The position numbers and the translations under genes are program-made. From assembly GCA_043770315.1 (NCBI GenBank), contig JAYVIJ010000043.1, positions 1,399-65,398 on the forward strand: a DNA stretch of 64,000 bases. The letters are read 5' to 3'. The DNA comes from Candidatus Altimarinota bacterium (GTDB lineage Bacteria; Patescibacteriota; Gracilibacteria; BD1-5; UBA2023). The notes below the pieces were generated by a model. It was not told the DNA's origin. It made no database searches and saw only the letters and a program-made list of their open reading frames with translations. This document shows positions 2 to 51,465 of this stretch, piece after piece; within the stretch, counting starts at the first letter, position 1, and each line of letters starts with the position of its first letter.

Positions 2-1378
2 ATTATCTCTAAATTTAGTCCACTTTTCTCTACGGCAATAGTGTGAGATCTCAGAGATGGATGATTCATAGAGTGAGCAGAGCAAATAAGTGCTATAAGT
101 ATAGCGAGACAAGCATCACCTGTTGTCACAGCACTAGATACTTTAGATATTGCATTCTCTTGAGCAAACGTATGATCTTTCCGATTCTATGCCAATACAT
201 CATCTCCACCAAGTACAGAAATAGTATGATCATGAAGCCTTTATAGTGCGATTTTTCCATGATCGACTTTCCTCTATTCACAGCTTGTCCAAAGACCAAA
301 TACTGTTTCAACACTCTCAAACCTTATGATGTCTACACATCTGAAATATCGCCTCAATGGAAAGTCTATCGTGACAAATTCTAATCTTATAGGTAAATCA
401 AGTTTTCATGATGCTGGACCAGCACCACTTGCTGGAAATCAAGTCGGAATCAAAATTCTTGGATCTATCTGAGGAAAAAATGTCGATGCGATCCTTACAG
501 ATCAATTCTCAACATGAGTCAGCGTCTTTAAGGGTACAGATCGAAGTTTAATCCGTCAAGAAATCAAGAAAAATATCGCGCTTGCAACGAGAAATGCTAT
601 ACTAAGCCCAGTATGAAGTAGCGTTTCGGATCTCAGTAGTCTCCCATGAGGTGCTACTGCGCAAGGAGTATTTATATGACAGCCATGAGATAAATCGATA
701 ATGTTGATAGAAAAAAATGGAGGAAATGTTATTCTTGATATTACGTCTCCACTAACGTCAAAAATATCTTGAATCCGTACTTTGGTGGTTCGAGGAGCAA
801 ATCTCTTCATAAAGAGCGATATGTACTATGATCCACTAAACCCAAGTATGCTCGGAATTGTTCTTGAAAAAGATATAAATGGAAATGGATGAAATCTCTA
901 TATTGATCCAAATATCACAAATGTCGTAGGAACATACATCATAGATGGAAGTGTCATGAGCTATGATTCTGTAAAGGGAATACTTGGATCAACAGGTACA
1001 ATCGCAGATCTCAAAAATCAACTTCATATATATGGAACGATCGTCAGTGAGAATACTATCGGATGATCTCGTCAAAGTCCACCAAAATGTCCAAACCTCT
1101 TGAACGTTGTATGTGCGAATGTCGCAGATTCTCAGAAATATGATTTGAACTACTTAAGACGATACTATATCACTGCTCTTGGTGAGCCATTTGGTGGAGC
1201 AAAAGTGATCGGATGAGGTACTTGCCCATTAGGCGCTTGTACCCCTGGAAACCCAAACCTTGTACATAAATTTAGTGATATGACAAATGAATTTTCAAAG
1301 TATCCAATAATTATAGAATTTAATCCAAAAATTCAATCAATGATACCTATTGGATTTGATAAAATTTACCAAGATTAA
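2..1378 (+). CDS. 5'-truncated large secreted protein with the C-terminal 'NGNGGN-[IL]-Y-[IV]' module (paralog family)
   Basis: Frame 2 is open from the window edge to TAA 1376-1378 when TGA is sense. The translation ...EKDINGNGGNLYIDPNITNV...QLHIYGTIVSENTIGG...YDLNYLRRY...PIIIEFNPKI aligns motif by motif with the C-termini of 12534..15158, 29154..31484 and 46105..51465. Confidence 0.7.
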
Positions 1379-7091: not shown

Positions 7092-10000
7092 TTAAGGCTG
7101 ACATCTCAATGTTGCAATTCACCTTCTACCTGGTGCACAGAGTCCACCGCACCAATCTTGAGCACCAGCCAACATAGAATCTCCCGCTGGAGAACAGCTC
7201 GTACCCACATAATCCTCATAACCAGTAGAATTATTTCAAAATGAGACTGTTCCATTTAGTCTACATGAACAGCTTTCTGTTGACCAATAATTTGCTACTG
7301 GTGCTACATCACAATTCGCTCCACTCCATCCACCACTACAAGTATATCCACACTGAAGTCATCCAGCAGTCCATGCTTGTCCGACACTTGTTGGAGCATT
7401 CGCTGTCACAGTACAATGTCATGCAGCGATACATGCAGGACTTGCAGCACAGCTATTTGGAGGTGCTATCCAACATGCATCAGCAGCAGCTTTTTCTATA
7501 GCAGTTCCTGAACAGAGAATCGTATAGTTGGCTCATGCCCAAGGAGTATGGGGCTCACAAATAGTCGTATCTATGAATGGATCACAATCGAGCACAAATT
7601 GGTTATAATCATCGATACTGGTATCCAGTTTCTGGTTATGTACGATCACTCCATTGGCAAGATAGTTATGATTTGGCTTGAAGAGATCATCAGTCTCACC
7701 AGTATCATGGATGCCTGATACATGGAGATTATATACAGGGACTACTTTTTTCTCTACGGTGATATGCTTTATTGGTACAATAGTATTGGTAGTTCCATCT
7801 TGGAATGAGAGAGATTCTCCGGCGATCCATCTCTTATAGATGTCTTTCGCAGCTACATATCGATCATCTTTCGGAAGATAGATTCGATGGATATGATTGG
7901 ATGTAAGAGTCTGATCTCCATACTCGAATGTATAGAGCGTCTGGATTCTCTCCTCATGATGGATAGCTTCAGTGACAGGACGATCGACATAGGTTTTGGA
8001 TATTTCATCATAGGTCTTCACGAGTTCTCCTACTTGGATATCTTCGATCGACTTCGTCTTCCCTGAATCAAGGGTGACTTGTGTTCCTGCGACGAAGCAT
8101 CCATAATCCCAAGTGATAGTTGGTGGTACTACAGCAGCACAGGTGAACTCTCCTCGAGTTGGTGATGGATCTATATCAGTACAAGTTGCTCAGCCACGAC
8201 CACCACAGCTTGCATTGAATTTTCCTGGTTGAGTCGTAGAAATTGCATAACTTGGAGATGTACTTCAAACAGAGAGAGTATCAGTTTCAGTCACCCAAAC
8301 TATAGTATGCACAACTTCACAGTGAGGGAGTACTGCTGCACTACAGCTCAGGGCTCCACAATTCCAATTATAGGTATTATCAAATCCATTTATATCCACA
8401 TCTGTCTGAGCTCCTCAAGTACAGGCAGCTGCCCCTACAGGATATTCTATAGACCCTGTCGTCTGAGCAGTACCACAAGCATCAACAGTAAGTGGTGTAC
8501 ATGAACCTGAACCCACGATAGTTTCATATGCTATATTTCCAAGTACAGGATCTCCATCATAACATCGCATTTGCACCGATCCTGTAAATCCAGGATTAGT
8601 ATTATTGATAGTGACCCAAGGACCTATACCATTATCTAAAATAGGTGATAGTACTGGCATTGTTGATCCACATCATGGTCACCAGTTCTCAGTAATACAT
8701 ATTCCACCTCCGCCTGGACTTCTGCTAATCACATTACTCCATCCACTATCTCCATTTGTATTTCTAGCCTTTACTCTGAAGTCATAGCTTGTACCATTTG
8801 TGAGTCCTGTGACATTTGCATTCGTGGTAATGCTCACTCCGTCAGCGAATACGAGCCAGATAGCAGAGAGAGTCGGCTTGTATTCTATGATATAGTCTGT
8901 CACTACCTCTGCAGGAGCCATCCATGAGAGAGAGACAGAAGCATTTCCTGCTACCCCACTGAGAACAGTAGGAGCAGACGGTCCAGTAGGAGCACAATCT
9001 GGCATTGCAGCCATTTCCGCAGGAGTTTTGTAATATACGAGTTTTCCATTACAACTATTATATATAGCTGATCCTTGTGATGGTTGGTTAGATTGCCACC
9101 ATACAAGACCTCCAGGAGCAGGGCCATTTGTATCGACGAGGCTAAGTTCAGCATTTCCATAAGGGAATCCGACACACTGATCATCTGTCCAGCCACTCGG
9201 AGCATCTTTACATGCCCCAACTGGATTTATAGGTGTAGCGCTAATAATATTACTCGGTCCACTGTCCCCATTTCCATTCCTTGCTTTTACTTGGAAGTCA
9301 TAGCTCGTACCATTCGTCAGTCCTATGACATTCGCTGTTGTACCTGTACCGACACCGTCATTGAAGGTAAGCCAAATAGCTCATGCAGTCGTCTTGTATT
9401 CTACGATATAGTCAGCTATTATACCAGACGGAGCAGTCCACGAGAGTGCGACAGAAGCATTTCATGCGACTCCAGTGAGACCAGTAGGAGGTGAGGGAGG
9501 GAGTGCAGGACATACTACCTGAGCATCGACACTACATCCGCCAAAGACTGCGAACTCTTCTGTATCGAGTGTGAAGCGTCAAGTAACAGGAAGAGAATTG
9601 AGTATACTATCTCTATAGAATCAGCCAAGTGTAGCTTTTGCACCTGCAAGTTGATCACAAGTTGCATCCCATGATACATTCCCATCAATCTCTATTTGTG
9701 TTTTTTGGGCGGGAGTGATATATCCACTTGCTGTCCAGGCAGTAAGCGCAGATTTAAAATTATTCCAACAAGCAACATTCCAACCTCAAGCCTGCTCATG
9801 TGCAAAACAACTAAATGTTCCACAATTTCAACCTACAGGAGCTATCTCACAGTTCACACCACTATATCCAGGATTACAGGTAAATCCACAATTTGGAGAG
9901 TTTCGTGACCAGTCTTGATTGGCGCTTGTCGGAGTTCATAAATTGGTCGTACAGCCGATTCCGTCACAGGCAGGAAGTGTAGATGAGCAATGTGGTATAG

Positions 10001-10892
10001 CAGTACATGAACCTCCATTAAATATCCATTCTACAGCAGTAGTCCCGACGCTCACATCACTATCGACACACTTCCAAGTTACAGATCCTGAGTATCCTCC
10101 TACAGTATTCATAAGGGTGATGGTAGGCCCTGTAGCCACTTGGTTATCACTGATAGAGAATCCAGCAGGGATGAGTGCGCTACAATTTCCGCCTTGCCCA
10201 GATCATGACCATGTTTCTGAGTAACTCATACAACTTGAAGCACCAAGTGGAGCACAGGTTGGACCGCTAAAGCCAGCATTACATGTGTATTTACAATTTG
10301 GGCCTACTTGAGTCCAAGCTTGCCCTATACTTGTCGGAGTTCCAGTTGTGAGGGTGCATCCTGTATATCATGTACATGCTGGTGAAGCAGCACAGGAGTT
10401 TCCAACAGGAGGAGTACTACAATCAATCCCAGTAAATCCGCCAGTACAAGTGTACTTACAATTTGGACCGATCTGAGTCCAAGGCATATTGGCTATAGCA
10501 GGAGTGCCATCCACAAAACTTGCATTCGCATATGCTGGACGAGCAGCACAAGTAAACGCTGGGGGGAGAGGTGGTACAATAGGTGATCCACAAATTACGG
10601 AGCCATCAGCATTTACTGATAATATATACCCAGCACCACAGTTTCATATAAGTCTTTGGTAATAATTCGCAGGCTGATTATTCAATCGTGTCGAGTTTAC
10701 TACTTGACCGCTTTCGAGTCCAGTGAGTGGGGATACTCCAAGCATCCTCTCAAGATACATTGTGAATTCTCAGAGAGTAGCCGTAGGAACTGCTGCTATA
10801 AGAGTAAGGTAGCTCACAGAGAAAAATGCTATGAGAAGTGAGCCTCACAAGATGAGAATTGAGAAGAATTTTCTCGTAAATGAAGGACGCAT
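7092..10892 (-). CDS. 1266-aa membrane-anchored cysteine-rich surface protein: EGF-like repeats, 2x FN3, internal Hint/BIL domain, Cys-rich C-terminal region
   Basis: One frame is open from ATG 10890-10892 to TAA 7092-7094 (all triplets checked for TAA/TAG). N-terminal TM anchor. Repeats of the type GQAWTQIGPNCKYTCTGGFTGIDC. Two FN3 units (...SLSWMAPAEVVTDYIIEYKP...YDFRVKARN). Hint domain from CFVAGTQVTL to NGVIVHN. Confidence 0.8.
7635..8099 (-). other. Hint (bacterial intein-like, BIL) domain inside the 7092..10892 CDS
   Basis: N-terminal block Cys-Phe-Val-Ala-Gly-Thr (Cys codon 8097-8099). C-terminal block VYNLHV...NHNYLANGVIVHN (Asn codon 7635-7637), followed by Gln. About 155 aa with no endonuclease insert. 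Confidence 0.75.
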
Positions 10893-10944
10893 GGAGTGAG
10901 AATTAGAGATATAAGAAGGATAGTATCTATAAATAGGCTATATT

Positions 10945-12204
10945 TTACGGACAAGGGATTGGTGTGGTCGGTCCAGAGTAGCAAAATGGTCAAGCAATAC
11001 AACTATCATCTGCATATCAAGACTTTGAACATTTCCAGTGATGATTTTCTCCATTTACACTATACCTATCTCAAGTAGAAAAGTTACTTCATGCCTTGAG
11101 GGCTCCTCCATTTATACATGTATTCGTTATTCCAGTACACATTGCAAGGGTCGGGAGAGATTTATTTGCACTACAAGTTGGAGAAGCCCCTCATCATGAT
11201 CATACACATTGCCATATCCAAGGACCATTTGGAAAGCCGCTTACCTCAAGGGGAGAGCCGGTAGTACATACACTTGCACTTACTGAAGCCCAAGTATATG
11301 GACCAGGGAAACTTCCACCATTATAGACAGGGTTACATGCTCCATTTACTACGACACAAGCTCCAAGATTGCATGCTTGAGTTGTAGGTTGAGGAGTATG
11401 ACAGTTGTCATAACTACATGATTGGGTACGGCTTTGGGTTCATGGCCCACATGAGGTATTACATCCTGTCCATGCTGTATAGGTATATGGACCAGTATTG
11501 ATACAACTTTGATAGGGATTTGTTCCACTCAGGACAGTATTCGTACAGGTTCGATTTTGCATGAGGGATACACATGTAGTCGGAGTATTCGCTGAAGAGG
11601 CAGAGTATGCTACGCGAAAATCTCCATTGGGAATTACACCCCAAGGATTGACATTACAGTCACAGCTAATTCCTGGGTTACAGGTTCGTACATCAGCGGG
11701 TTTTACCAGTGCTGGTACTGCTGCGATACATTTCGCATCGGGGAATATATTCCCGAGATTATCCGTACAGGTGACTGTGCCAGTCTGACTTCCAGATGCT
11801 GGTGTGGTTCCACAGAAGCCATTCGTCGGTACACATGTGCCCCATGTTGTTGGAGCATTCCAACGATAGATGGTGTTACATACAGTCGTTCCATCAGCAT
11901 TTATCTTCACGATAGGATTATCTACCCCGCAAGTACTATTTACCTTTCTCTGGTATTGCACAGGATCTACTCATCAGAGCTTATCTGTATTTTTGACCTT
12001 TCCATCTGTAGTAGCGATATTCGTATCTTCGAGAAGATTTTGGAAGTACTGTGTGAATAATGTTCATTTGGGTGAAGTCCCCCCAATCCCATTGGCAGGA
12101 TATGCTGCAGATGTCATCCATGATGAGGATATCTGAAGGATCATACCGATGCAGAGACCGATGATGCCTACACGTACAAATGAAAAGATAGAAGAGTGTT
12201 TCAT
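10945..12204 (-). CDS. 419-aa membrane-anchored cysteine-rich protein with thrombospondin type-1-like repeats
   Basis: ATG 12202-12204 to TAA 10945-10947, read through TGA. N-terminal TM, then NTDKL-G-G-VDPVQYQRKVNSTCGVDNPIVKINADGTTVC. YTAWTGCNTSCGPGTQSRTQSC matches the W..C..SCG.G.Q.R...C pattern of TSP1 repeats. Confidence 0.7.
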
Positions 12205-12234
12205 AAAGAAGAAGAAAAAGATCAAAACGAACTA

Positions 12235-12507
12235 CTAGTTTGCACAAGAGAGACCTCATGCGTTTACACCATTTGCCCATTGCCCGACACAAGTATTTGG
12301 TATGAGTCTCTGGTATTGGGCTGCATCAAAACCATCAAGTTTCCTCGAATCTCGGACAGTACCATTGCTCTGATATATTCGAGGGAAGAGATCATAGTAG
12401 ATGCCTCCGCCAATTGCTGAAGTAAAAGGTGCAACAATATGCATCCCGAGAGCAATGCTACATCCTAGTACTATACCGAGGAGAGAATGATAAATATAAG
12501 TTTTCAT
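12235..12507 (-). CDS. 90-aa membrane-anchored mini-protein (TM helix plus conserved Cys module only)
   Basis: MKTYIYHSLLGIVLGCSIALG...SRKLDGFDAAQYQRLIPNTCVGQWANGVNA-G-GLSCAN, ending at TAG 12235-12237. This is the same module that opens 10945..12204, 7092..10892, 32292..34016 and 34546..34845. Confidence 0.6.
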
Positions 12508-12533: not shown

Positions 12534-15158
12534 TTAGCGTATTGGAGCAAGACCAGGAGGTGGATCAGTGACGATACGACTATCATATTCAATGATAAAT
12601 GATGCTTTTTTATCATTTGATGAGAGATTTGCTGCGGCTCTTGCTAAAGTCGCTGGTGATATACCACGATAGTATCTAAAATGTTCAAAGTCATATCGAA
12701 GCGGTATTTTGCTATTGCTATTACAATTATCGATTGATTGAGGACAGACAGGAGCTCCTGGTATGGATGCTCATCCGATCGTATTGAGGGAGATAATACT
12801 TCCAAATACATACAGTTGCTTATCGAGGACTCAGGTTGCATTCGAGAGGTCAGTATAGTAAGGCGTTCCACTTCCTGGATCACCAGAGAGAAGAGATCCT
12901 TCAGTGATAAGAGAAGTATCGAGGCGAAAGACGGTATTTTTGACATAGATATTTCCACCATTTCCATTTGCATCTTTGAGTGCGATGAGGGCACGAGGGA
13001 GGACTTGCGCATTCGGAAGGATATAGTCTGCACCGATGGTGATATCACCATATACGACTATAGATGCTTTATTATCGAGGAGAGCAATTTGGGCAGCATT
13101 GATATTTTGACTTCCAGAATATACAATCAAGTTGGTTCATGTATATGTAGAGGCATTGTACGTAGCATTTCTTGTGAGAATACTGATATTTTTGCGTATT
13201 TCATTGAGTATATTTGCGCGAGTGACTGAAGCATTTTTCGGTTGATACATTTCAGTGATGCTTTGGTATATCTTATCACCGCTTGATTGCCCGAGTATTT
13301 TCACTCATCCAGCAAATACGCTATCACTTTGAACAAGAGTACCTTGAGAAAGACCCTGATACGTGATATCTTGTCAACCTACTCACCCGACTCTATAGGT
13401 GATAACAGAGTCATATGCGTAAGATTGCTCTATGTCTACCATATTGACTCGACGAGGCGTTACAGTGAATGAGTGGATATCATTTCCACTCGTCGGTATC
13501 GATATCATCGATGCTCGACCTCACCCAGCGCTGATCCCACGATCACAATATGGACTTCCGTATGATCATCCACTCGGAAGATATGCAAAACAGTCCTGAA
13601 TCGGATTTATACCCGTAGTGTCCTGGAACGTAGAGGCGACATTCGCGACTCATCCCACAGTAGTGACTATAGAAAGTCCATGGATGATATGGGCATTGCT
13701 TGATGCTCCGCTTGGGTCAGTCTTTTGTATAGCACCTGTGATCGTCGTCGGACGTCCTATCTGCCCAGAGAGTCCGATGATACCAATGACTCTATAGAGA
13801 GGAAGGAAGGTGATATTCGTCGTTTGGAACTTCCCAGTGATATCAGCTGAGTGAGCATTTGGTCATGATACATCGACACTCACCGTTCATATACTTATAT
13901 TATTACCAAGAACATTTGGATCTCATGCAGTAGTAGGAGCGTAGCTTGATAAAGAAAAGCTTCGACCAGGAGTATAGTTGTTAGTAAAGGGAAGGGGAGT
14001 AGCATTGGGATTAGTCTCTGTGATTGAGTCATAGAAGCGATATGCTTTATTTGTCTGACCAGCGACATCACCTCTTCCATACGCAAGAGGATTGCCAAAT
14101 AGAGTATTGGTGACCGTAGTACTATTGATTCATACACTATATGTGATATTTCTTCCTATCGCTCCTTCCGCTTTTAGAGTATTCCCATATATATCACGAA
14201 GATTGATTGTGGCATTGAATTTTTGTACGGCATCAGCGAACTTTGAACCGAGAGGGCTTGCAAAATCTCATCCTGCCCAAGTCGTTTTTGGTGTGCTTCC
14301 ATCTGGACAAAGAAGAGCATTTGGGAGATTTGCTGGGATACAAAAAGATGTGAGGAGCGTCCCAGCGGTGACGTTCGCCGCTTGAGATATATTTGCTGCA
14401 TAGACTTGTATCGTTCCTGTGGTAGTCGAACCAAATGGGTCAATGATAGTATAGGTATACTCTGTCGCGAGAGAGAGATCTACATTCGGAAATCCACTTG
14501 ATCATTGATTATAAATATAGGGTCGACATAATGTGATATATCATACAGGGCAGAGTAGCATTGTTATAGTGGCACTTCCGCGTGTAAGTATCCATGCTGG
14601 CACATTTGCCCTGAGTGTTACTGAGTTTGTAGCAAAAGTATAGTCGGAAAAAGGTGCAATATTTGTAAGGGGTGCACCATTGAGAGTTACAGGCATTGCC
14701 CAGAGTTCTGAGTTAAATGGGATTGATCCCACAGTAGTACTCGATGCATTTCAGCTGATGAGTCAAGTGGATTTTGTATAGGTGATACCTTGTCACTCTA
14801 GCTCGATCCAGCCTGCCATACTACTCCAAATATAGCCCCTGAGTGGACATGATATAGCAGCCCCAGTCATACAAGCAACATCGAATTTTGCTTCACTTCC
14901 AGCAACTCCATGGTCAAATTGGGACCATCCTATCGCGTCGGTCCATACATCACCATGAATGATATACCCAGCATCAATACGTACTGGTAAAGGAGAGGGT
15001 CATACCCAAGGGGTTCCCCCCGAAGAGAAGAGAAGATCAGAAGGATTTCCTCCGTAGAGGTAGGTTGTCGCACTTGGAGAATACGCAGCAAATATTTGTA
15101 GAGGAGCTATTATAAATAGACTGAACAAGAATATGATGCGAAAAAGAAAAGATGACAT
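12534..15158 (-). CDS. 874-aa secreted protein with the C-terminal 'NGNGGNIYV' module (paralog of 29154..31484)
   Basis: ATG 15156-15158 to TAA 12534-12536, single frame read codon by codon. Signal peptide MSSFLFRIIFLFSLFIIAPLQIFAAY. C-terminus ...LKDANGNGGNIYVKN...QLYVFGSIISLNTIGG...FIIEYDSRIVTDPPPGLAPIR. Confidence 0.8.
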
Positions 15159-15186: not shown

Positions 15187-16239
15187 TTAGGATTGAAGCT
15201 TAATGCTCGCAACACAAGATTCACGCAAAGAATCATCGACAAGAACATCACATTGGCTTATGTCTTTTGATTCAATAATCTTTTTGATGCGAGTACGATC
15301 AAAACATGATGTCTTAAGTGGACTCTCAGTAAGTTTCTCACAAAGTCTAGGATCTCATTGATTCGTAGCATCGAGAAATATCAAACGTTCTTCTAAAGTT
15401 ATAATTTCTTTTTTACATTGTTCAGCGAGAGAGGTATTTGTGATTTTTTCACAAAGAGAAATATCGCTCTCCTTCTTTGCTCGTGAGTAAAGAGCGGTAT
15501 CTTCACATCGTATTTTTAGAATTTCATCACTCATTTTTTCGCATATTCCAGAATTGGGACTTTCTCCAATTTGAGAAAGTATCTTATAATCATTTTGTAT
15601 GACGATACGGCTTTGACATTCTCATTGGACATCTTTATCGGCGAATTCTTTACAATCTTTTTCTGAAAGTTCTCACTTTGCTGACTGTTTCATCTCGAGA
15701 ACGACAGATTCCGTTCTCTGTTTACATTTTTCTTTCAGACTTATATCTGTTATTTTTTCACAAGTTTCATCATCTTGCTTTGTGCTTCCTGAAAGAGATA
15801 TTTCACTCATAGCAGAAGAGAAATATACATTATTTCTACAGGTATCTCCACTTGTTCCACTGAGGGTCTCACAAATAAGAGGATCTTTTTTTTCCGAAGC
15901 GAGAGAACTCGTAACTTGATTCTCGCAGTTTTGTTTCATTTCATCAATCTCAATTTTCTTGCATACAGTGACATCTTTAGTTCTCGTCGCTTCATTAAAA
16001 AACTCTATTCCCGCAATCGTAGCTTCTTTATTCTTTTCTGCTTCTTCCTCACTTTTTTTCATCGCTTCGATAAATTTCTCATCCTCAGGTGTTATCGTGA
16101 GAACTCTTATATTAGCAGCTTTTGGTGGTACTGACGGTGGAAGTATTTTTTGCTCGTTTGACGGAGAAAAATATATCCATACAGCAATGGCGATACCAAT
16201 GATACCACAAACAAGACTCATCCAAATCGATTTGCTCAT
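15187..16239 (-). CDS. 350-aa membrane-anchored protein built of Cys-pair repeats (family with 18951..19592 and 28117..29091)
   Basis: N-terminal TM (SLVCGIIGIAIAVWIYF), then about nine units of the form D...C-x(7-12)-C, e.g. DISLCEKITNTSLAEQCKKE and DPRLCEKLTESPLKTSCFDR. Ends TAA 15187-15189, 28 nt upstream of 12534..15158. Confidence 0.75.
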
Positions 16240-18950: not shown

Positions 18951-19592
18951 ATGCGCTTATTTCTTCTTGTACTTTCACTGAGCTTTATTCTTATAAGTTG
19001 TAGCACAAAGAGCTCTTCCTCTTCACAAGTAGAAAAATGAACTGTAGATGGTTCTTATGGTGAAGTACTCGAAAACACTTCAACAAAAATAAAAAATACA
19101 GCAGAATTCGAAGAATGTATGAGACCAAGCGTAAATATGTGTGTCAATCAAGTGGGAAACCAACTTGCTCGATCTCAAAAATCTACTGACTTTTGTGATG
19201 AGATGATGCAATGAAGTGCAAGAGATGGTTGTAAATTTGGAGTTATAATGTCCCAAGTTGCGGAATCAAAAGATATAAAACAGTGTGATGGACTCAGTGA
19301 CATGTATAAAAAAGAATGTCGAGTGAGCATCCTTCTTGCTCAAGCAGTAAGCGCAAATGATATAAAAAAATGTGACCTTATCGAGTCTGAGGTTTCTCAA
19401 TCAGGAAGTACTGATACATCAAACAGTAGAGCGGACCAGTGTCGGGCTGATCTTATCATGAGAAAGCAATGAGCAAAGGTTTCTGATTGTGATATACTTA
19501 AGAATGGTGTCTCAAAAGATATGTGTAAGGCAATCGTAGAAAATAGAAATGAATGAGCGAGAGCAGCTACAGAGACGACAATCCAAAATTAA
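18951..19592 (+). CDS. Lipoprotein of the Cys-pair repeat family
   Basis: Lipobox LSFILIS-C. Repeats DIKQCDGLSDMYKKECRVS, DIKKCDLIESEV and VSDCDILKNGVSKDMCKAI resemble 15187..16239 and 28117..29091. 213 aa. Confidence 0.7.
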
Positions 19593-28116: not shown

Positions 28117-29091
28117 ATGAAAAAAATTTTTTTTGGCATACTCATAATCTTTTTGCTTCTCGGATGAATCATATATTTTATTTCTTGACTTTCAGATACT
28201 CCAAAATGACAAGATAAGTGGACTTTTCGTACATCCCAAAAGGAAACCCTAAGCTATGAGGACAAAATAAAACAAGATGAAGAAACAGCAGTGCACGATA
28301 AGGGCATCTATAATAACGCACTAAAAACACAAGATACTATTCTTTGTAAAGATATCATAAATACAGATGAGAAAAAACGATGTTATGATATGATCGGTGC
28401 AAGTGTCGCCCTCAAAGAGAGAAAAAAAGAAATGTGTGATACTCTCAGTAATTCTGGAATCGTGGAACGATGTCGAGATAATGTCTCATTTTCGCTCGCA
28501 GAAAAATCATGAGAAAAAACGATGTGCGCTCTTATTATAGATGAAAATCTGAGAACTCAGTGTGAAGAGATGATCGATACCAAATCTTTCTCTCTTCGAG
28601 TTGCTTCGGGGACGATCGATACAGCTTTTTGTGGGACACTTGCTGGAAGTGTCTGAGATCAATGTCGAGCTCAAGTCACGAGGCGAGACGATAAAAATAG
28701 CTATAATAATGCTCTTTCTCAAAAAACTCTCGAAAGCTGTGATACTATAGAAAACGAGGTGCTTCGGTCTCAATGCCGAGATACAATCATATTTGATATG
28801 GCTATTAAACAAGGAGATACGGACTTGTGTGCGAGTATTTCCAATAAGTCACGATCTGAATATTGCGAAAAATCACTGAATGTACGCAATGATACTATTC
28901 TCTATGGATCGATCGTAAAAGAAGGCGATATTATCGCATGTGACACACTTATATCTCTTGAACTCAAGAACCGATGCCATGATGTAATACTCATAGCTCA
29001 AGTACGATCGAATCAAGATTCAGCCCTCTGTGAAAATCTCTATAATACTGGCATGATAAGTAGTTGCCGAGGATTGATACGATCGAAATAA
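28117..29091 (+). CDS. 324-aa membrane-anchored Cys-pair repeat protein (paralog of 15187..16239)
   Basis: N-terminal TM (FFGILIIFLLL-G-GIIYFIS). Repeats DTILCKDIINTDEKKRCYDM, KEMCDTLSNSGIVERCRDN, DTDLCASISNKSRSEYCEKS and DSALCENLYNTGMISSCRGL. Confidence 0.7.
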
Positions 29092-29153
29092 ATTTAGATG
29101 AAGAAAGTGTGCTAAAATTCGCTTTTTCTTCATATTTATGCTAGCATAGACGT

Positions 29154-31484
29154 ATGATGTGGTATTTTTCTACGATCATCTCGCTGTTTTCTATTGTATG
29201 GGGATTTTTTTGATGTATTTCATCCTGAGAAGCAGCGACGACATATTCACCAGGGAGTACTATCGCTATGACTGGATCCAATGGCGAAGTATTTTTTGAT
29301 GTTACAGATGATCTTTTCGGATATCCTATACCGAGGCCCAGTTTCGATATGATGCTTGGAACTTTTTCTTGAGCGTTCTATCTTTCTTGAGCAGGTTGGG
29401 TCGATTTCTTGACGGGAAGCTATAGTGTTGCTCTCGATTGCGGCGCTCAGTCTTATGATGCACTTACTCTCCCTTGTACCCTTTCATGAGTCGCATATGG
29501 TGAGATAGTAGGGGATGTCCTATTTGATCGACAAGTCCTATTTGATCCTACGACATGACGACTTTCAGGTACCGCTTCTACCTATATCTGAGTCTATGAT
29601 TTTTCTGGTATCACCCTCCCACTCCTTCCTGCGAGTTTCGTCCTCGGCAATAGAGTCACAGCCGATAACGAGAAAGATCTCTCACTCTCGGGTATGAGCC
29701 TCTATGGAGATACCGTATGGAATATATTTATGGAGACGTCGCCAGGAGGTATGAATATCTCTTATACAGTCGGTCTACCTACCGACCTTTCTCATGCAAC
29801 GACGTACTATGTTGAAATACACGATCCAGATGGAGGAGTGACGACGATCGATGATTTTGAAGTAGTTGCTGATCAGCCATCGAGCGTTCTCTACTCCGCG
29901 ACACCGACTATTCGAGCAGATTTTTGTACGAATAATTTTCCTTCACTCCTTTGTCCAGATGGAACAACTTTGAAAGCTATGACTCTTGATCGGACAGAGA
30001 CCATCACCCCGATGATTGCCAACGGTGTCGATATGTATAACTTTGTTCTGAAGCTTCGAGATCGATATGGAAATGAAGTACGAGAAGGAAGTATAAAAGT
30101 GGATTATACAGATATGATTCGTACGATTCAGGCAGATCCACTCAAATATAATAATTTGGTTATAGATGCTTGTTCATTTGGTACCTGTGCTATCATCTCT
30201 CAGGGTGATCTTCAGAATTTCTTCGATGGTGTACTTACGACAGGAGACGTCATCATAGGTATGAGTGATATCAATTTTGATATAGCGAGTATTGCTCCAT
30301 CGACCCTTACGGATACCATCACTCTCTCAGGAATACTCTATACTGATACTTTTTGAGTAAGTCATGATGTGACCGATCCGACATGGAGAGCGCCACTGGT
30401 GTTTGATCCATGGTATACGACGAGTATACTTCCGATTCCATCGATCGTCGTTTGAAGCGTCGTGGACTTTACGACGAACTATGCACGCACGACTTCAGCT
30501 ATACCACCCAATACTCCTACGGCGATATATGATATAGCAATCGGTTCCAATAATCCTGCAGCATTTACGGGTTTTGTATCAGCTATAGCCCCATCATGCA
30601 CTAAATATTATCTTTCATCGGGACTAGATGAGTGTGATTGGGGAGGTACTCCAGATCCTGTCATGATCTCGACGGAGTCACTCAGTTTCTCTGGTATCTA
30701 CTGATATGGTGGATATGAGCCACCACCAGAGAACATCAACTATAACTCGTATATACGATATAGTGTGCTTCATCCACTGCTTGGTACGAATGTCGTATCA
30801 TACTATCCGAGTGGAAATGGAAGTCTCGGAATATCCAATCCTGGAGCTATCCGTATGAAAATCCTCGGACAACACAATCTCCCTGGACTTTCCTGAATCC
30901 AAGAAAAAAATATTGCTGATATCTGGAACACTCTCCAAAAAAATATCGCACTGATGTCACGCAATCGTACGACATATGCTGATGTTCCTTATAGTGTCAC
31001 AGAGGGTAATATCTCGATATCTGATACTGACTTCACATCGACATCACCAGAGAAGCGGACGATCGTATCTCTCGGGTGAGACATCACGATCACGAGCGAT
31101 ATCATAGAAAAAACTTCACCTATAGCTATCATCGCCCTTTCTGATACAGATGGAAATGGTGGAAATATCATCATCGATCCAAGTGTCACAGATATCCACG
31201 CTACTCTCCTCGCAGAGAGGGTAGTGTCATCTACCGGATCCAATCAACTCTATATCCATGGAAGTGTCATATCTCATAATACCACGAGCGATAGCACCTG
31301 TCCATACTATATCTCTCCATGTGCCAATCCTGAACTGTATAATCTCGAAAATCTCCGCAAAGATTTCATCATCACGCCAGGCAGTCTTGCATCTTCTCTC
31401 TCTGGGAAATACCCCAATATCCCACTTATCATCGAGTATGATGGAAGAGTCATATCTTATCCACCACCGATTCTCGAACAGTAG
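29154..31484 (+). CDS. 776-aa secreted protein with the C-terminal 'DGNGGNIII' module (paralog of 12534..15158)
   Basis: Single frame from ATG 29154 to TAG 31482-31484, read codon by codon. Shares NFPSLLCPDGTTLK, LKLRDRYGNEV, KNIALMSRN, SDTDGNGGNIIIDPSVTDI, QLYIHGSVISHNT, YNLENLRKDF and LIIEYDGRVISYPPPILEQ with its paralogs. Confidence 0.8.
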
Positions 31485-31495
31485 AAAAATCTGCA

Positions 31496-31529
31496 GAGAA
31501 AACTCCCGAATATTTTCGGGAGTTTTCTC
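31496..31529. terminator. Bidirectional rho-independent terminator
   Basis: gagaaaactcccgaa-tatt-ttcgggagttttctc, a 15-bp stem, lies between the convergent genes 29154..31484 and 31547..32149. Confidence 0.7.
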
Positions 31530-31546
31530 TGGAATCTTATGAGAAA

Positions 31547-32149
31547 TTATGCAGCTGTTTCTTCTGGAGTCTCTGTCTTTTTTATTTCTGGACTAGCTCC
31601 CGTTGTAGCAGATCTACGACGACGAGCCGCCAGACCTACCACACCAAGCCCAAGTGCACCGAGTGCAAAAGTCGAAGGTTCAGGGACAGCACTGATGTGA
31701 GCATTGCCTCGCATCGATATATCGCCGAATCAAGAGTTATCCCAGCTACCTACAGTATAGTTACTCGATGATAAACTGTTAAGTCCATTACTCATATTTA
31801 GGCTTCCAGCTTCGAAACTATAAAGACTCGTAAATATTAAATTTGGAAATTCAACTAACATATCAAATTTTGTATCTGTTCACTCATACATCGCTTCAAA
31901 ACTCACCTGATATGGATTTCCTGCGGTAGGAGCTCAGAGAACACCAGTCCCAGTGAAGAGTGTATTTCCCTGATTATCAGTAAATATATATTCTCCTATT
32001 CCGCCAGTACTTGTTGGTCAACTAATATTTCCTTTGACAGAAATAGAGTCAACTCATACTGGAAGCGTGACTATACCTGCATCTGCCGTTTCTGCTCCTA
32101 CAAGAGCAACAGCAGCAAAAGCTGTAGCTGCTACTCTTCTGAGAGACAT
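31547..32149 (-). CDS. 200-aa secreted protein with a PEP-CTERM-like C-terminal sorting signal
   Basis: GGAGG Shine-Dalgarno 5 nt upstream of the ATG. Signal peptide MSLRRVAATAFAAVALVGAETADA. C-terminus SAVPEPSTFALGALGLGVVGLAARRRRS plus a 20-aa tail. Five in-frame TGA. Confidence 0.7.
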
Positions 32150-40012: not shown

Positions 40013-40024
40013 AAGGGATAGTAG

Positions 40025-46104: not shown

Positions 46105-49100
46105 ATGCGTACCGTACTTACTCGATCTTTGCTCGTACTCGGACTTCTCTTTGGTGGAGCTTTCAGCACCGCTGCTGCAGAACTTCCTTGCAACCAGAGT
46201 TTTTCTCCACTCTATCTCCGATATGGTGCCTTTCACTATCTTCAAGATAAAGTTTCTAACACGAATAACTTCCCACTCTATGCTCAGAGCATGTATGGTG
46301 AGTTCAGTACACTCGGGTACTTCGTAGGAGGAGGACAGCTCGATAAGCCGGTACTCTGGGATATTCCTGCTCTTGCGAGCAATCTTGTGATGATGCAATC
46401 AGAGTTTCCTGTACAGATTGCCAATCGTCCTGCAGTACGATCGACAGATATGGTACGAGGTGATATATATGCACAATATGTAATGACATGGGATATACTC
46501 AATACTGTGACTACAGCAGATGATACGAGACACGTAGAATGTCAGCCATATATCGTGACATGGTGTGGTGATGGAACTAAGGATACTCAGCTTGATTGGA
46601 CAAATACTCCCTATGAATCATGTGATGATGGTGCTCTTAATGGTCAACCTGGAAAGTGTAATGCTACATGTAGTGGTACTACTCCTCCGACTCCAGTTCC
46701 ATGAGTATGTGGATCATCGAATGGTCAGACTCTTGCATCTGTACCAGTGATGAATCTCTGTAATGCTGGTACACCGACAGCAGTATCTGGATCAGGCCCT
46801 TGGACATGGTCATGTACAGGTCTCAATGGTGGAGCAAATAGTCCAGTCTGTAGTGCGAATCCACTCCCTCCCCCAGTGAATGGAGTCTGTAGTAGTACTG
46901 TTTCATGAGAAGTATGATTACCACTTGCGAACGGTGCATGTAATCTAGGTACTGTCATTGGATTTGGATCTACAGGAACCAACCCAGTCAACTATACTTG
47001 GAGCTGTAGTGGTACAAATGGTGGTGCCAATAGTCCTACATGTAATGCAAGCTATACTCCACCACCTCCTGTAGTCAATGGGGTTTGTAGTTCAGCGGTC
47101 ACGGGGCCACAATCAGCACCACTTCTTGCATGAGTATGTAATGCTGGTACAGTAGCATGATTCTCATCTGTGGGTACGAATCCAGTAAACTATTCATGGA
47201 CATGTAATGGACTTAATGGTGGAACCAATAGTTCTTCATGTACAGCGAGTTATATTCCTCCTCCAGTACCAGTCAATGGAGTCTGTAGTTCCACAGTTAC
47301 AGGTCCTCAGAGCTCACCGCTTGTCACAGGTTCTTGTAATGCTGGTTCAGTTTTAGGTTTTCTCGCATCAGGAACAAATCCAGTCAATTATAGCTGGACT
47401 TGTGGATGAGTAAATGGCGGATCAAATAGTCCTACTTGTAATGCCAACTATACTCCTCCCGTCACAAATTTCGCCGTATCGATCAAAAAATATGTCGATA
47501 CATTCGATGCTCAAACCATAAGTGGAGCTGTCATACTCAATACTGGAGACACATTCGATTATATACTCAGAATCAAAAATGAGTGACCAGCTCCTACGAG
47601 CGGTATCACTACCGTGACCGATGCACTTCCTGTAGGTGTCATGCTTAATGGCCCAATATCAGCACCAGGATGGACTTGTACAGGGACAATAAATATTAGC
47701 TGTGCTTCATCTTCAGTTGTTGCCGCGAATGCATTTTACTCAGATATTACACTTCATATGAAGGTAACTGCAACAGGAGGTACTATCACCAATATTGCGA
47801 CAGTATCAAATCCAGGTGGCTCACCACCGACTGGTCCTTCGACTGATCCAGGAGTGATCGTTGTGCCTCCTCCTCCAGTATGTAGTGCTACCTATGTAGG
47901 TGCACTCCCAGCTCCGATCAATGCTACCACCCCAGGTCTTTGTAATGTCGGAACTTCTATGACATTTATGACTTTTGCGAGTGGTACAACACAAAACTTT
48001 ACTTGGTCTTGTAAATCATGAACAAAAACAGTGGGATGTAATGCCAACTATACTCCTCCAGTGAATCATTTCGCGGTATCGATCAAGAAATATGTAAATA
48101 CATTTGATGCTCAGACAGTCAGTGGAGCTGTAATACTCAATACGGGAGATACATTCGAATATATACTAAAGGTGAAAAATGAATGACCAGACTCGACAAC
48201 AGGTACAACAACTGTAGTAGATGTACTGCCTACATGAGTAGTACTCAATGGCTCAATATCAGCACCAGGCTGGACATGTGTAGGAACTACTACTATAATC
48301 TGTATCAACAATAATTCTATCGCTGGAAATACCTTCTTCCCAGATATCACTCTTCCTATGAAGGTGACAGCGACCAGCGGTACTATTACGAACATCGCAT
48401 CAGTCTCGAATCCAGGATGTGGTACCCCTGTATGACCTACGACTGATCCAGGAGTGATCGTTGTTGCACCACCACCAGTATGTGATTCAGGAAAAATCGG
48501 TGTCCAGTCTTCTCCGTTATCCATGGGATATTGTGCAAGTGGTACTGCGACAGGATTCACTGCTGTAGGAGTCAATCCAATCAATTATTCTTGGTCATGT
48601 ATAAATGTGAAAAATCAATCAGTTACTTGTAATGCAAGTTATAGTACAGGAAGCACCCCTTCATGTAATAGTATAACTGTAAATCCTGTTTCTGGAAATA
48701 TCCCCCTTGTATCAAATATTTCTTGTAATACGACAAATGCAACATCAGTTGTTATTACTTGTGGAAATGGTCAAACACTCTCATGATCTATAGGAGTTTG
48801 TACTTATACGACAGTAGGAACATTCACGCCAACTTGTACAGTCAATGGAACTATCACGAATGCAGCATGTAAAGGAACAGTAACAACTACCAATACTCCA
48901 CCTCCTCCTTCCGCTTCTTACGTCTCTATTAAGAAGTACGCTGGTACTCTCGATGGTCAAGATGCGACAGGAGCTCTCTCTGTTGTTCCAGGTGGATCAT
49001 TTAATTACCGATACGATGTATCTAATACAGGTACTGTCGCAGCTACAGGTGTAGTCGTTACAGATACACTGCCTCAGTATGTGAGTATTAATTCAATTAC

Positions 49101-51465
49101 GAAACCAGCAGGATGGAACTGTGTTCAAGGAACAAAAACAGTCTGAGTGGTCGTACATGCTACTCTTGTTTGTACTACTCCTTCTCTTGCAGCAGGTGCT
49201 ACTGTTTCTATAACAGTCAATGCTACTCTGGCTCTCACAACTCCTGCAAACGCACAACTTCGAAATATTGCTTACGTATGTAAGCAAGGTGATGCTCCTA
49301 CAGTCAACTGTGATCCTACTTGTATCGTCGATCCGACACACCCAAGATGTAATCCTCCACCTCCACCTCCTCAGTGTGATCCTATGCCAGGAAGTCCAAA
49401 CTATGATCCTGCATGTGTAGTGACTCCTCCTTCGACTCTTCGATCGTGTGATACACTCACATCACTTCCAAGTGGTTCAACCCTCTCTCCAAATGTAGAT
49501 GTCACATATACATGTGCTGCTACAGGATCTATCGCTATCCCAGCAAATCTCGAATACTCTATCAAGTGTGGTGCTGGTGATACATCGACTGGTTCGACGT
49601 ATACAGGATCCAATACTCGTGTGTGTCGTACGCCAAGTACAAACTCTACTTCACAGACTATCACTTGTGCTGTCCGAGATAAGTCGACTGGTGTAGTATT
49701 CTCTGGATCTGAAATCTGAGCATGTAATGTTACGAAGACGACTTCAGGTGGTGGTAGTAGCACGACGATTCTCTATGTTCCAAAATGTGTAAATGGTAGC
49801 CCGACATGTGCTACTACTGGAAATTATGCTGATACAGCACTTTGTAAACTGGGAGAATGAAGAGATTGTTATAGCAATCAAACAGATTGTGAGATTGCAA
49901 AATGAACTCTCTCTTGTGGATGAGGCGGATGTAGTGGACCAAGCTGTGGAAGTTGTGTCGGAGCAGGATGTTCGAATGGATGAGGATACTGTGGTGACTG
50001 AGTTCTTCAGTCTGGTGAAGAGTGTGATGTAGCTGGTGCTACTTGGTGTGGACAACGGGGAGAAAGAGACTATCTTGGTGATCTTATCGAATGTCAGATC
50101 AAGGGTCTTACGACTCCTGGAGCTAATCCTATCACGGACCTCTGGATGACGATCCCGACTCTTTCAAATACACGACTTGGATATACATGGCTTGATGGTA
50201 CAGTAGGAAAAATCCGATTTAATGATAATGGTATGGTCCTCGGTGTGAATACACGAGCCTTCACTATAGCTGACAAGGTAGGATTTGGAATCAAAAGAGA
50301 GTTTAATGTCCCACTTACTGTCGAAGCAAACAAGATCATATGTCTGACATCTTCAGGGACAAGCATGAATAGTAATACTGCATGTACAAACTTTGGTAAC
50401 CTCGTTCCAGCATCGATGAAGTTTACGGTTCCTGCTACGGGGAAGCAATATGTACTTATCGGAAATGGTGATTACCAAGTCCGACAACTTGATGGAACTT
50501 ATAGACAGTATACTGTGACAGGAAATCCGAATAATATCGATCTCTTCAAGGGTGCAAATACCTATGTCACTTCAAATGGAACTATGAAACTCTATGAAGC
50601 GTTCTACGGTACTCAGATCGGTCTTGATGGTCAACTTGCACTCTATCATAATAGTATCACTACAGGTCAACCAATCGATCTCGCAGCACTCAGAGTGAAT
50701 GTATCAGGAGCAAAAGTCGGAGGAACATCATCGACCGTGAATCGTAAACTCGAAACCTATATTAATAGTACAAGTCTTGTCAGTATATTCCTCTCTGGAT
50801 TCCAAGGATATACGACGACGACCTCTTCGACTGATGCAGTCGGTGGTGGCTCAGCTACAGCAGTAAATGGTGGAGTGACAGTAAATACTACCAATGCTCC
50901 TCTAGGAGGACTCAATGTCGCTGGTGCCGCTATACCAGCAGCGTATAGACTCAATGGAAATGATAACATATATTCTGTAAGAGGTGATGTGATCATGAAT
51001 TGTACAAGCGGTATCACTGCTACAGAACTCCAAGGGATCCGTACACTTATCGTAGAAAATGGTGACCTCATCATCAACTGTAATAATGGCTATGGATCAT
51101 CAGATATATCTTCGAGCTGGGCATTCATCGTAAAAAATGGAAATATCCGAGTCGCAAAAGAAGTGACCAATATGGCTGGTATCTATGTATCTATAGGTAC
51201 ACCTGGTGCTACTGCTTGTGATGGAACAGGGAATATCTGTTCTGTAGGAAATCAAGCAACCAATAATATTCTCCGTCTTAATGGAAGTATGTATGGAAAT
51301 GCGAAACCACTCTTCGATAGTCGTCTCTATGTCCGTGGTACGAATGCTTATGACATACTCACAACAGGAGTCATCATCTCCTACTCAAATCGAGCCCTCG
51401 TGAATCCTCCACCACTTCTCTCACAATATCTCAATAACTATAGTGTGACAAGAGTCGTGAAGTAA
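46105..51465 (+). CDS. 1786-aa secreted repeat adhesin-like protein
   Basis: Frame 1 is open from ATG 46105 to TAA 51463-51465 (all gaps read codon by codon). Signal peptide ...GAFSTAAAE. CGDG...CDDG Cys-rich repeats. Seven ~60-aa repeats (VNGVCSS...NPVNYSWTCNGLNGG.NS..C). Three DUF11-like units (VSIKKYV.TFDAQT...LP.GV...GWTC). The C-terminal module is shared with 12534..15158. Confidence 0.85.

What the first reader, a model, noticed from the sequence alone, without database searches (positions are those of the whole stretch)
28117..31484. Duplicated two-gene cassette: Cys-pair repeat anchor protein followed by a large 'NGNGGNI' secreted protein
28117..29091 plus 29154..31484 (plus strand) mirror 16239..15187 plus 15158..12534 (minus strand). 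The order is the same, the spacers are short, and both members are paralogous.

The first gene family (a third copy is a lipoprotein at 18951..19592) consists of ~35-aa units, each with two Cys (D...C-x7-12-C). The second family shares a ~250-aa C-terminal module ([IV]..RN, DxNGNGGN[IL], QL.[IV].G.[IV].S.NT, Y[ND]L..[LF]R, IIE[YF][DN]...PPP). That module also ends the truncated gene at 2..1378 and the 1786-aa protein at 46105..51465. Four copies of the module and three of the partner in 64 kb is a large paralog expansion for a small genome.
Basis: seen in the sequence. Interest (0 to 1): 0.65.

Follow-up and report, generated by a model that had tools for sequence, protein, structure and literature searches.

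The report
Conserved surface-protein gene pair in Gracilibacteria
The duplicated gene pair is real and is kept together in every related genome checked: a membrane-tethered cysteine-repeat protein followed by a large secreted protein, both of unknown family, probably forming part of the cell surface of a tiny host-dependent bacterium.

Summary
The window reads TGA as glycine (code 25, Gracilibacteria), which is why standard ORF calls break these genes.

- **The pair.** A1/B1 (28117-29091, 29154-31484, +) and A2/B2 (16239-15187, 15158-12534, -) are full-length paralogs at about 25% identity, with 62- and 28-nt spacers.
- **Family A.** It has an N-terminal membrane anchor and eight C-x10-11-C units. 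All 16 Cys are invariant and identically spaced in the 8 aligned homologs.
- **Family B.** It has a signal peptide, a beta-rich middle region and a roughly 225-aa C-terminal module.
- **Adjacency.** An A gene sits directly upstream of B in 14 of 14 independent loci that carry a full-length B1/B2-type gene.
- **C-module.** B0, B1, B2 and B3 carry it. It belongs to a large superfamily (3,402 50%-identity clusters), always sits at the C-terminus, and usually occurs without A. So A goes with B's N-terminal and middle region, not with the 'NGNGGNI' module.
- **Known relatives.** None reached significance in Pfam, NCBIfam, PDB sequences or Foldseek.
- **A2-B2 operon.** It is part of a five-gene arrangement that is conserved in locus L013.

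My best reading is a membrane dock (A) paired with a surface adhesin (B), with the C-module acting as a lineage-wide envelope retention or assembly domain. That function is inferred, not shown.

The parts
28117..29091 (+). A1: 324-aa membrane-tethered protein with eight C-x10-11-C units. It has an N-terminal TM helix and 16 invariant Cys.
   Evidence: Translation with TGA=Gly. Orthologs start at this ATG, not at the upstream ATG of the database gene call. Cys spacing is 11,17,11,17,11,22,10,24,11,17,11,24,11,17,11.
29154..31484 (+). B1: 776-aa secreted protein with a signal peptide, a beta-rich middle region and the C-terminal module.
   Evidence: 15 full-length orthologs at 33-98% identity with no Pfam domain. 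The AF2 model is all-beta but poor (pLDDT 48). Foldseek gave only generic Ig-like hits.
30807..31484 (+). C-terminal module of B1 (aa 552-776), NGNGGN subtype. It ends with IIEYDGRVISYPPPILEQ.
   Evidence: Profile match E 3e-104. AF2 model has pLDDT 72 and pTM 0.75: one helix followed by short strands.
31494..31531 (.). 17-bp-stem hairpin between the convergent genes B1 and 31547-32218. It is a likely bidirectional terminator that closes the A1-B1 unit.
   Evidence: No terminator-like site lies between A1 and B1.
15187..16239 (-). A2: 350-aa paralog of A1 with the same 16 Cys in register.
   Evidence: It has an ortholog in L013 at 33% identity.
12534..15158 (-). B2: 874-aa paralog of B1. The C-terminal module covers about aa 606-871 (nt 12534-13343).
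   Evidence: It has an ortholog in L013 at 38% identity over the full length.
7092..12507 (-). Three genes downstream of B2 on the same strand: 12235-12507, 10945-12204 and 7092-10892. They share an N-terminal module and probably belong to one operon with A2-B2.
   Evidence: Spacers are 26-52 nt and no terminator follows B2. The same gene order with 3-13-nt spacers occurs in L013. The shared N-terminal motif is shown. Domains found: FN3 x2 and PT-HINT, and a TSP1-like match.
18951..19592 (+). A3: 213-aa lipoprotein paralog of the A family with five Cys pairs and no B partner.
   Evidence: Profile E 3e-9. Lipobox LISC and Cys spacing. An ortholog lies upstream of NTP_transferase in L003.
2..1378 (+). 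B0: 3' part of a gene cut by the window edge. It carries the NGNGGN-type C-module at about aa 166-451. Its N-terminal part does not resemble B1 or B2.
46105..51465 (+). B3: 1786-aa protein with Cys-rich repeats and three DUF11 repeats. The divergent (B3-type) C-module lies at about nt 50902-51465.
   Evidence: About 76 close homologs of its C-terminus were found in the database.

Best explanation
A and B form a conserved, co-transcribed two-gene unit that builds part of the cell surface of Gracilibacteria.

**A.** It is tethered to the outer face of the cytoplasmic membrane, by an N-terminal TM helix in A1 and A2 and by a lipid anchor in A3. It displays a low-Pro/Gly repeat domain, probably helical, of eight units (consensus A-x4-D-x2-L-C-x2-I-[ST]-D-E-x-L-[RK]-x2-C-x-D-x-I). 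Each unit is probably stapled by one disulfide.

**B.** It is exported by Sec. It consists of beta-sandwich, invasin-like domains with conserved Cys pairs, and ends in a roughly 225-aa helix-plus-beta-solenoid module.

**Proposed mechanism.** I propose that A is the membrane dock or assembly partner that holds B's N-terminal and middle region at the cell surface. I propose that the C-terminal module is a lineage-wide envelope retention or assembly domain. It would play the role that SLH, CWB2 or T9SS C-terminal domains play elsewhere, and it is used by many otherwise unrelated surface proteins.

**Shown.** Paralogy, strict gene adjacency, co-divergence, predicted export and tethering signals, and the family size and position of the module.

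**Inferred.** Disulfides, helical structure of A, A-B binding, surface retention, and a role in host attachment.
For: **Adjacency.** A lies directly upstream of B on the same strand in 14 of 14 independent loci with a full-length B1/B2-type gene. These are the window (two loci), L001/L008, L002/L010, L003, L005, L007, L009, L011, L012, L013, L015, L016 and L017/L018.

**Different contexts.** The flanking genes differ between loci: RuvA...FecR, CorA, RF1...HSP20, Mfd...MscL and NusB.

**Co-divergence.** A-A and B-B similarities co-vary over 21 pairs (r = 0.94). Each window cassette has its own ortholog elsewhere. The unit was therefore duplicated and inherited whole.

**Co-transcription.** Spacers are short. 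No terminator lies inside the pair, and a strong hairpin follows B1.

**Family A.** All 16 Cys are invariant and identically spaced at 22-65% overall identity. The ectodomain has 0.5% Pro and 3.3% Gly.

**Family B.** It has a signal peptide and invariant Cys pairs. Foldseek hits are to Ig-like surface proteins such as invasin, intimin, BcpA pilin and SbsC. Sub-threshold Pfam hits to Invasin_D3 and Big_1 occur in orthologs.

**C-module.**
- The exhaustive search found 3,402 cluster representatives at E<=1e-3.
- The module ends within 12 residues of the C-terminus in 227 of 227 proteins with a complete module.
- The host proteins range from 137 to 1,611 aa and have varied N-terminal regions.

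**Literature.** Related code-25 bacteria are described as having elaborate fibrous surfaces made of large proteins with DUF11 and fibronectin domains (PMC8080830).
Against: - There is no direct evidence of A-B contact.
- No structure prediction was made for A.
- The full B1 model is poor (pLDDT 48), so its Ig-like matches are only generic (TM about 0.1).
- The C-module has no recognisable wall-binding, sortase, PEP-CTERM or T9SS signature.
- No candidate sorting enzyme was identified.
- Adjacency in compact genomes can persist partly through inheritance alone.
Confidence: 0.4

Rival explanations
1. B-type and other module-bearing proteins are structural subunits of an S-layer or fibrous coat. 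The beta-solenoid C-module would be a self-association (stacking) unit. A would be a transient extracytoplasmic folding or assembly chaperone rather than a permanent dock.
For: There are many paralogs with one shared C-terminal module. The model is solenoid-like. SbsC S-layer hits occur among the Foldseek matches for B1. A fibrous surface is reported for a related lineage.
Against: No repeat lattice or S-layer domain was detected. A is conserved 1:1 with only one subfamily. Nothing here tests polymerisation.
Confidence: 0.2
2. The C-module is a secretion or sorting domain. A dedicated machine would recognise it and remove or covalently attach it, as with T9SS C-terminal domains or exosortase and sortase substrates.
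For: It is strictly C-terminal with a conserved tail ([IV]IEY[DN]xRxxxDPPPxL, or SYSNRALxNPPPLLS...) in 227 of 227 proteins. The cargo regions are very diverse.
Against: At 190-280 aa it is much larger than known sorting signals. It has no TM segment and no LPXTG or PEP motif. No Pfam or NCBIfam sorting-domain model matched. No partner enzyme was identified.
Confidence: 0.15
3. The module is a ComZ-like beta-solenoid, and these proteins associate with type IV pili, for example as tip adhesins or DNA receptors.
For: The best Foldseek hit of the C-module model is the Thermus competence pilin ComZ (6qvi). A type IV pilin gene lies at 53584-54105. Type IV pili are prominent in these lineages.
Against: The ComZ hit is not significant (E 0.17, probability 0.33, TM 0.23). 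B proteins have Sec-type, not prepilin-type, signal peptides. No pilus genes are adjacent in any of the loci examined.
Confidence: 0.05
4. A and B are a toxin-immunity or similar conflict pair. B would be a secreted effector and A its protective partner.
For: It is a two-gene unit. A neighbouring operon gene (7092-10892) has a pretoxin-HINT domain.
Against: B's C-terminus is the conserved part, not a polymorphic toxin tip. The putative immunity gene lies upstream and is extracytoplasmic. No toxin domain was detected. The pair is vertically conserved in housekeeping contexts.
Confidence: 0.03

Closest known systems
Paralogous cell-surface protein families with a shared anchoring module (SLH-domain proteins; CWB2 cell-wall proteins of Clostridioides difficile). 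This comparison is from general knowledge.
   Same: Many proteins in one genome combine variable 'functional' regions with one conserved terminal module. They are secreted by Sec.
   Different: There is no sequence or fold similarity to SLH or CWB2. The module here is a helix plus beta-solenoid of about 190-280 aa and always sits at the extreme C-terminus. Wall or polymer binding is untested.
Invasin/intimin-type adhesins (arrays of Big_1/Ig-like domains)
   Same: B's middle region gives Foldseek hits to invasin 1cwv and intimin D00-D0. Orthologs give sub-threshold Invasin_D3 and Big_1 hits around the IANGxDxYxFxLKLRDRYGN motif.
   Different: All these hits are below family thresholds. B has no beta-barrel anchor and no C-type lectin tip. 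The model confidence is low.
Helicobacter cysteine-rich proteins (Sel1-like repeats with one disulfide per helical hairpin). This comparison is from memory and is only a lead.
   Same: Both have tandem units of about 30-37 aa, each with two Cys, and both are extracytoplasmic.
   Different: Pfam searches returned no match to any known repeat family, Sel1 included. The profile search against PDB sequences found nothing. The spacing here is C-x10-11-C. A is membrane-tethered.
Beta-solenoid domains flanked by a helix (ice-binding-like fold; ComZ solenoid; Cthe_2159 beta-helix)
   Same: The predicted C-module is one long helix followed by about 12 short strands. Weak hits to ComZ, to an ice-binding protein and to the Pfam families Cthe_2159 and Beta_helix are consistent with a solenoid.
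   Different: None of the hits is significant: Foldseek E >= 0.17, and Pfam scores below the gathering thresholds.

Membership tests
PEP-CTERM / LPXTG / MYXO-CTERM type C-terminal sorting signals (for the B C-module) | A short motif followed by a hydrophobic TM segment and a basic tail at the extreme C-terminus | tested here: not met
   The B tails end in ...IIEYDxRxxxDPPPxL or ...NPPPLLSQYLNNYSVTRVVK with no hydrophobic segment. No Pfam or NCBIfam sorting model matched. The neighbouring gene 31547-32218 does match PEP-CTERM and serves as a positive control.
Known anchoring or sorting domains represented in Pfam | A match to a domain profile at or above its threshold | tested here: not met
   Pfam-A scans of B0, B1 and B2 and of 32 C-modules returned no anchoring or sorting domain, even at E up to 5.
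Sel1-like / TPR-like Cys-bridged helical repeats (for A) | A match to a known repeat profile; helical hairpin units | tested here: not met
   No match to any known repeat family among 8 members at E<=1. No PDB sequence relative at E<=10. Helical structure is inferred from composition only; no structure was predicted.
Bacterial Ig-like adhesins (Big_1 / invasin) | Pfam Big_1 or Invasin_D3 at the gathering score; an Ig-like beta-sandwich fold | tested here: inconclusive
   Sub-threshold hits only: Invasin_D3 at 17.8 bits against a cutoff of 33, and Big_1 at 13.3 against 34.9. Foldseek hits came from a low-confidence model.
Right-handed beta-helix / ice-binding-like / ComZ solenoid (for the C-module) | Significant structural or profile similarity | tested here: not met
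   Best Foldseek PDB hit E 0.17 (ComZ); ice-binding protein at E 3.6. Nothing significant in BFVD. Cthe_2159 and Beta_helix each matched in 1 of 32 members, below threshold.
Polymorphic toxin / immunity pair | A variable C-terminal toxin domain with a downstream cognate immunity gene | tested here: not met
   The C-terminus is the most conserved part of B. The partner gene lies upstream and is predicted to be extracytoplasmic. No toxin domain was found.
Genetic code 25 lineage (Gracilibacteria/Absconditabacteria) | TGA decoded as Gly | tested here: met
   In-frame TGA falls at invariant Gly positions of UvrB and Mfd. Related loci come from Candidatus Gracilibacteria MAGs. No tRNA-Gly(UCA) gene lies in the window, so the tRNA itself was not seen.

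The most novel reading that the evidence does not exclude
The roughly 225-aa helix-plus-solenoid C-terminal module would define a previously undescribed cell-surface display system, largely confined to TGA-recoded lineages. It would be a functional counterpart of SLH, CWB2 or T9SS C-terminal domains. It has thousands of cargo proteins and no detectable structural relative. The A-B pair would be a dedicated receptor-adhesin complex used for attachment to host or prey cells.
Probability: 0.3. Interest if true: 0.65.

Novelty: new variant of a known kind. Interest (0 to 1): 0.5.

Why it matters
Gracilibacteria and their relatives are mostly uncultured. The cultured relatives are predatory, and groundwater Gracilibacteria are inferred to be host-dependent. 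Their surface proteins are the presumed tools of host recognition, yet almost all of them are unannotated.

This work defines two concrete orphan families:
- a strictly conserved membrane-protein and secreted-protein pair;
- a very large C-terminal module superfamily.

Both have clear sequence signatures that can be turned into profile models. Those models could be used to annotate thousands of 'hypothetical' proteins and to choose targets for structural, proteomic and localisation studies.

It is also a reminder that public gene calls for these genomes often read TGA as Trp or as stop, which hides such families.

Tried and rejected
- **Structure prediction with correct translations.** I used database versions with W at TGA positions instead.
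- **Full-length B1 model.** It was too poor (pLDDT 48) for domain-level conclusions.
- **Family searches.** Pfam and NCBIfam scans of A and B found nothing. Profile searches against PDB sequences gave only a chance-level hit to Scabin for B (E 0.36) and nothing for A.
- **Fold searches of the C-module model.** Foldseek against PDB and BFVD found nothing significant.
- **Word-indexed homolog search for A1.** It found only 3 proteins. A orthologs had to be recovered from loci fetched through B.
- **Literature.** The papers read do not describe these families. The hypervariable PTD-repeat protein of Sieber et al. is unrelated.
- **Ideas rejected.** Toxin-immunity, a sortase or PEP-CTERM signal, and a pilin were each set aside (see the membership tests).
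- **Translation and promoter signals.** No Shine-Dalgarno sequence is evident upstream of the starts. Promoter-like sites were no more frequent than in shuffled sequence.
- **One contig look-up failed.** P0230 is not on record.
Full report
**Genetic code**

Every internal stop in the seven genes is TGA. In the window's UvrB (51502-53478, -) and Mfd (37025-40024, -), in-frame TGA falls on invariant glycines: PxGDQP, GDRxRK, [11 protein letters not shown], GDVGFGKT and GDILGxRQSG. The window therefore uses code 25, as in Gracilibacteria and Absconditabacteria. Related loci come from 'Candidatus Gracilibacteria' MAGs. All proteins below are translated with TGA=Gly. The public protein database renders these codons as Trp.

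**The observation**

- A1 (28117-29091, +; 324 aa) and A2 (16239-15187, -; 350 aa) align over their full lengths at 25% identity (E 5e-26).
- B1 (29154-31484, +; 776 aa) and B2 (15158-12534, -; 874 aa) align end to end at 26% identity (E 1e-31).
- The spacers are 62 nt and 28 nt.
- B0 (2-1378, cut by the window edge) shares only the C-terminal roughly 250 aa with B1 and B2 (E 1e-11 to 1e-14; profile E 8e-26).
- B3 (46105-51465) lacks the NGNGGN motif. A profile built without B3-type sequences gave E 3e-4, in two collinear pieces at its extreme C-terminus.
- Comparing profiles of the two subtypes gave 96.7% probability and E 4e-10 over 128 columns. B3 therefore carries a distant subtype of the same module.
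- A3 (18951-19592) matches the A profile at E 3e-9. It has a lipobox (LISC) and five Cys pairs.
- The window holds no further copy of either family.

The Cys spacing within a pair is C-x10-11-C in A1 and A2.

**Family A**

- *Anchor.* A1 and A2 begin with a short basic N-terminus followed by about 20 hydrophobic residues. This is a signal anchor that places the rest of the protein outside the cytoplasm. A charged linker follows, then eight Cys-pair units.
- *Cysteines.* In the 8 aligned homologs at 22-65% identity, all 16 Cys are invariant. The gaps are 11,17,11,17,11,22,10,24,11,17,11,24,11,17,11, with only a few gaps differing by up to 3 residues.
- *Unit consensus.* A-x4-D-x2-L-C-x2-I-[ST]-D-E-x-L-[RK]-x2-C-x-D-x-I-x4-A.
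- *Composition.* The ectodomain has 0.5% Pro and 3.3% Gly. I infer disulfide-stapled helical hairpins; this was not modelled.
- *Known relatives.* There is no Pfam hit, no meaningful NCBIfam hit and no PDB-sequence relative.

**Family B**

- *Export.* It has a Sec-type signal peptide.
- *Conserved features.* The conserved motifs include GAFYLSGAGWVDF, LCPDG, IANGxDxYxFxLKLRDRYGN and PWYTT. Several Cys are invariant (C96, C108, C258, C267, C482, C494, C716).
- *Orthologs.* 15 full-length orthologs were found, none with a Pfam domain.
- *Full-length model.* The AF2 model is all-beta but poor (pLDDT 48). Its Foldseek hits are generic tandem Ig-like surface proteins such as alpha-2-macroglobulin, BcpA pilin, invasin, intimin and SbsC, with TM about 0.1.
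- *Weak Pfam hints.* Sub-threshold Invasin_D3 and Big_1 hits in orthologs point the same way.

**The C-terminal module**

- *Model.* An alignment of 32 modules of both subtypes gave a usable model with pLDDT 72 and pTM 0.75. The core scores 82-95. It is one 19-residue helix followed by about a dozen short strands, which looks like a solenoid.
- *Fold search.* Foldseek found nothing significant in the PDB (best: ComZ 6qvi, E 0.17; an ice-binding protein at E 3.6) or in BFVD.
- *Pfam.* The only hints are isolated sub-threshold beta-helix matches (Cthe_2159, Beta_helix).
- *Family size.* An exhaustive profile search of 1.84 billion representatives found 3,402 proteins at E<=1e-3, 1,297 at <=1e-10 and 220 at <=1e-30.
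- *Position.* In 227 of 227 retrieved proteins with a complete module, it ends within 12 residues of the C-terminus (median 1).
- *Host proteins.* They range from 137 to 1,611 aa and have diverse, mostly unannotated N-terminal regions.
- *Lineage.* Their inflated Trp content (median 3.3%, up to 9%) indicates TGA-recoded genomes.

**Co-occurrence**

| Locus type | Loci examined | A gene directly upstream |
|---|---|---|
| Full-length B1/B2-type gene | 14 | 14 |
| Only the C-module shared | 3, plus B3 in the window | 0 |

- The 14 loci are the window (two), L001/L008, L002/L010, L003, L005, L007, L009, L011, L012, L013, L015, L016 and L017/L018. In each, A is on the same strand as B and carries the same Cys signature.
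- The flanking genes differ between loci: RuvA...FecR-like, CorA, RF1...HSP20, Mfd...MscL and NusB.
- The loci sharing only the module are L004 (475 aa), L006 (433 aa) and L014 (1,036 aa).
- A-A and B-B similarity co-vary over 21 locus pairs (r = 0.94).
- L013 is orthologous to the A2-B2 locus (A 33% and B 38% identity). L001, L002, L003 and L007 are orthologous to A1-B1.

The cassette was duplicated as a unit long ago and both copies have been kept. A tracks B's own N-terminal and middle region, not the shared module.

**Operon structure**

- A 17-bp-stem hairpin (31494-31531) follows B1. No terminator-like site lies between A1 and B1.
- Nothing terminator-like follows B2.
- The three downstream genes (12235-12507, 10945-12204, 7092-10892) recur in the same order, with 3-13-nt spacers, after the B2 ortholog in L013.
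- These three genes, and the FecR-like gene 32292-34016 near B1, share an N-terminal module: a signal anchor followed by G.V.N..L.G.....YQR....C......[VI]NA.G...C.

**Interpretation**

- *Dock model.* The simplest reading is that A is a membrane-tethered extracytoplasmic partner, a dock or assembly factor, for the secreted adhesin-like B. The evidence for this is indirect: strict adjacency across contexts, co-divergence, predicted co-transcription, and membrane tethering achieved in two different ways within the A family.
- *C-module.* Its invariant C-terminal position on thousands of different cargos suggests a lineage-wide retention, assembly or sorting domain.
- *Context.* This fits published descriptions of elaborate, fibrous surfaces built of large proteins in related predatory bacteria (PMC8080830), and of host-dependent lifestyles in Gracilibacteria (PMC11452946).
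- *Limits.* No binding, localisation or processing was or could be tested here.

The rivals are listed separately with their weights: coat polymerisation with A as a chaperone, a cleaved sorting domain, pilus association, and toxin-immunity.

**Novelty and score**

Paralogous surface proteins that share a terminal module, and conserved secreted-protein and membrane-partner pairs, are familiar themes. The two families themselves appear undescribed: none of the profile, PDB-sequence or fold searches, nor the papers read, gave a significant match. I rate the finding a new variant of a known kind, with interest 0.5.

Noticed in passing
whole window; for example 51502-53478 (-) and 37025-40024 (-): TGA is a sense codon for glycine (code 25). 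Table-11 ORF lists are therefore fragmented. The public protein database shows Trp at these positions, and its gene call for A1 starts 117 nt too far upstream (P0016).
   Followed up: yes
31547-32218 (-); L003 12245-12925; L007 10418-11113: A 223-aa protein has a PEP-CTERM-like motif (VPEPSTFALGALGLGVVGLAARRRRS; Pfam 33.8 bits against a cutoff of 20.7) followed by an extra polar tail of about 25 aa. It is conserved convergent to B1 orthologs in two other Gracilibacteria loci (L003, L007). A PEP-CTERM-like motif seemed unexpected to me in a CPR bacterium. No exosortase was looked for.
   Followed up: partly
12235-12507 (-), 10945-12204 (-), 7092-10892 (-), 32292-34016 (-): Four genes flanking the two cassettes share an N-terminal module: a signal anchor followed by G.V.N..L.G.....YQR....C......[VI]NA.G...C. 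The first three follow B2 and recur in the same order in L013, which suggests a conserved five-gene operon.
   Followed up: partly
7092-10892 (-): A 1,266-aa Cys-rich protein has two FN3 domains and a pretoxin-HINT domain at about aa 930-1086, followed by about 180 more residues. This architecture recalls polymorphic toxins. The C-terminal part was not analysed.
   Followed up: no
53584-54105 (+): A type IV pilin-like gene with an N-terminal methylation motif (KKGFTLVEMMVVIAIIGVLAA; Pfam N_methyl E 2e-9).
   Followed up: no
46105-51465 (+): Upstream of its C-module, B3 has repeated Cys-rich units of about 55 aa (NGVCSS...CNxG...NYxWxCxGxNGGxNSxxC) and three DUF11 repeats. It is preceded by a 72-aa lipoprotein gene (45858-46076).
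   Followed up: partly
L011 7974-10312: In MAG MFD02832.bin.2.127 a second A-B locus has the B gene split over three reading frames. This is either a pseudogene or assembly errors. Its A gene is nearly identical to that of L001/L008 from the same MAG.
   Followed up: no
20933-25195 (-) and 41793-45806 (+): Two very large ORFs (1,420 aa and 1,337 aa) with charge-rich sequences, the second ending in a proline-rich stretch. Neither was scanned against any family library.
   Followed up: no
25381-25455 (-), 25613-25689 (-), 17550-17633 (+): Two tRNA-Met(CAT) genes lie about 160 nt apart, and there is one tRNA-Leu(CAA) gene. No tRNA-Gly(UCA) gene lies in the window.
   Followed up: no
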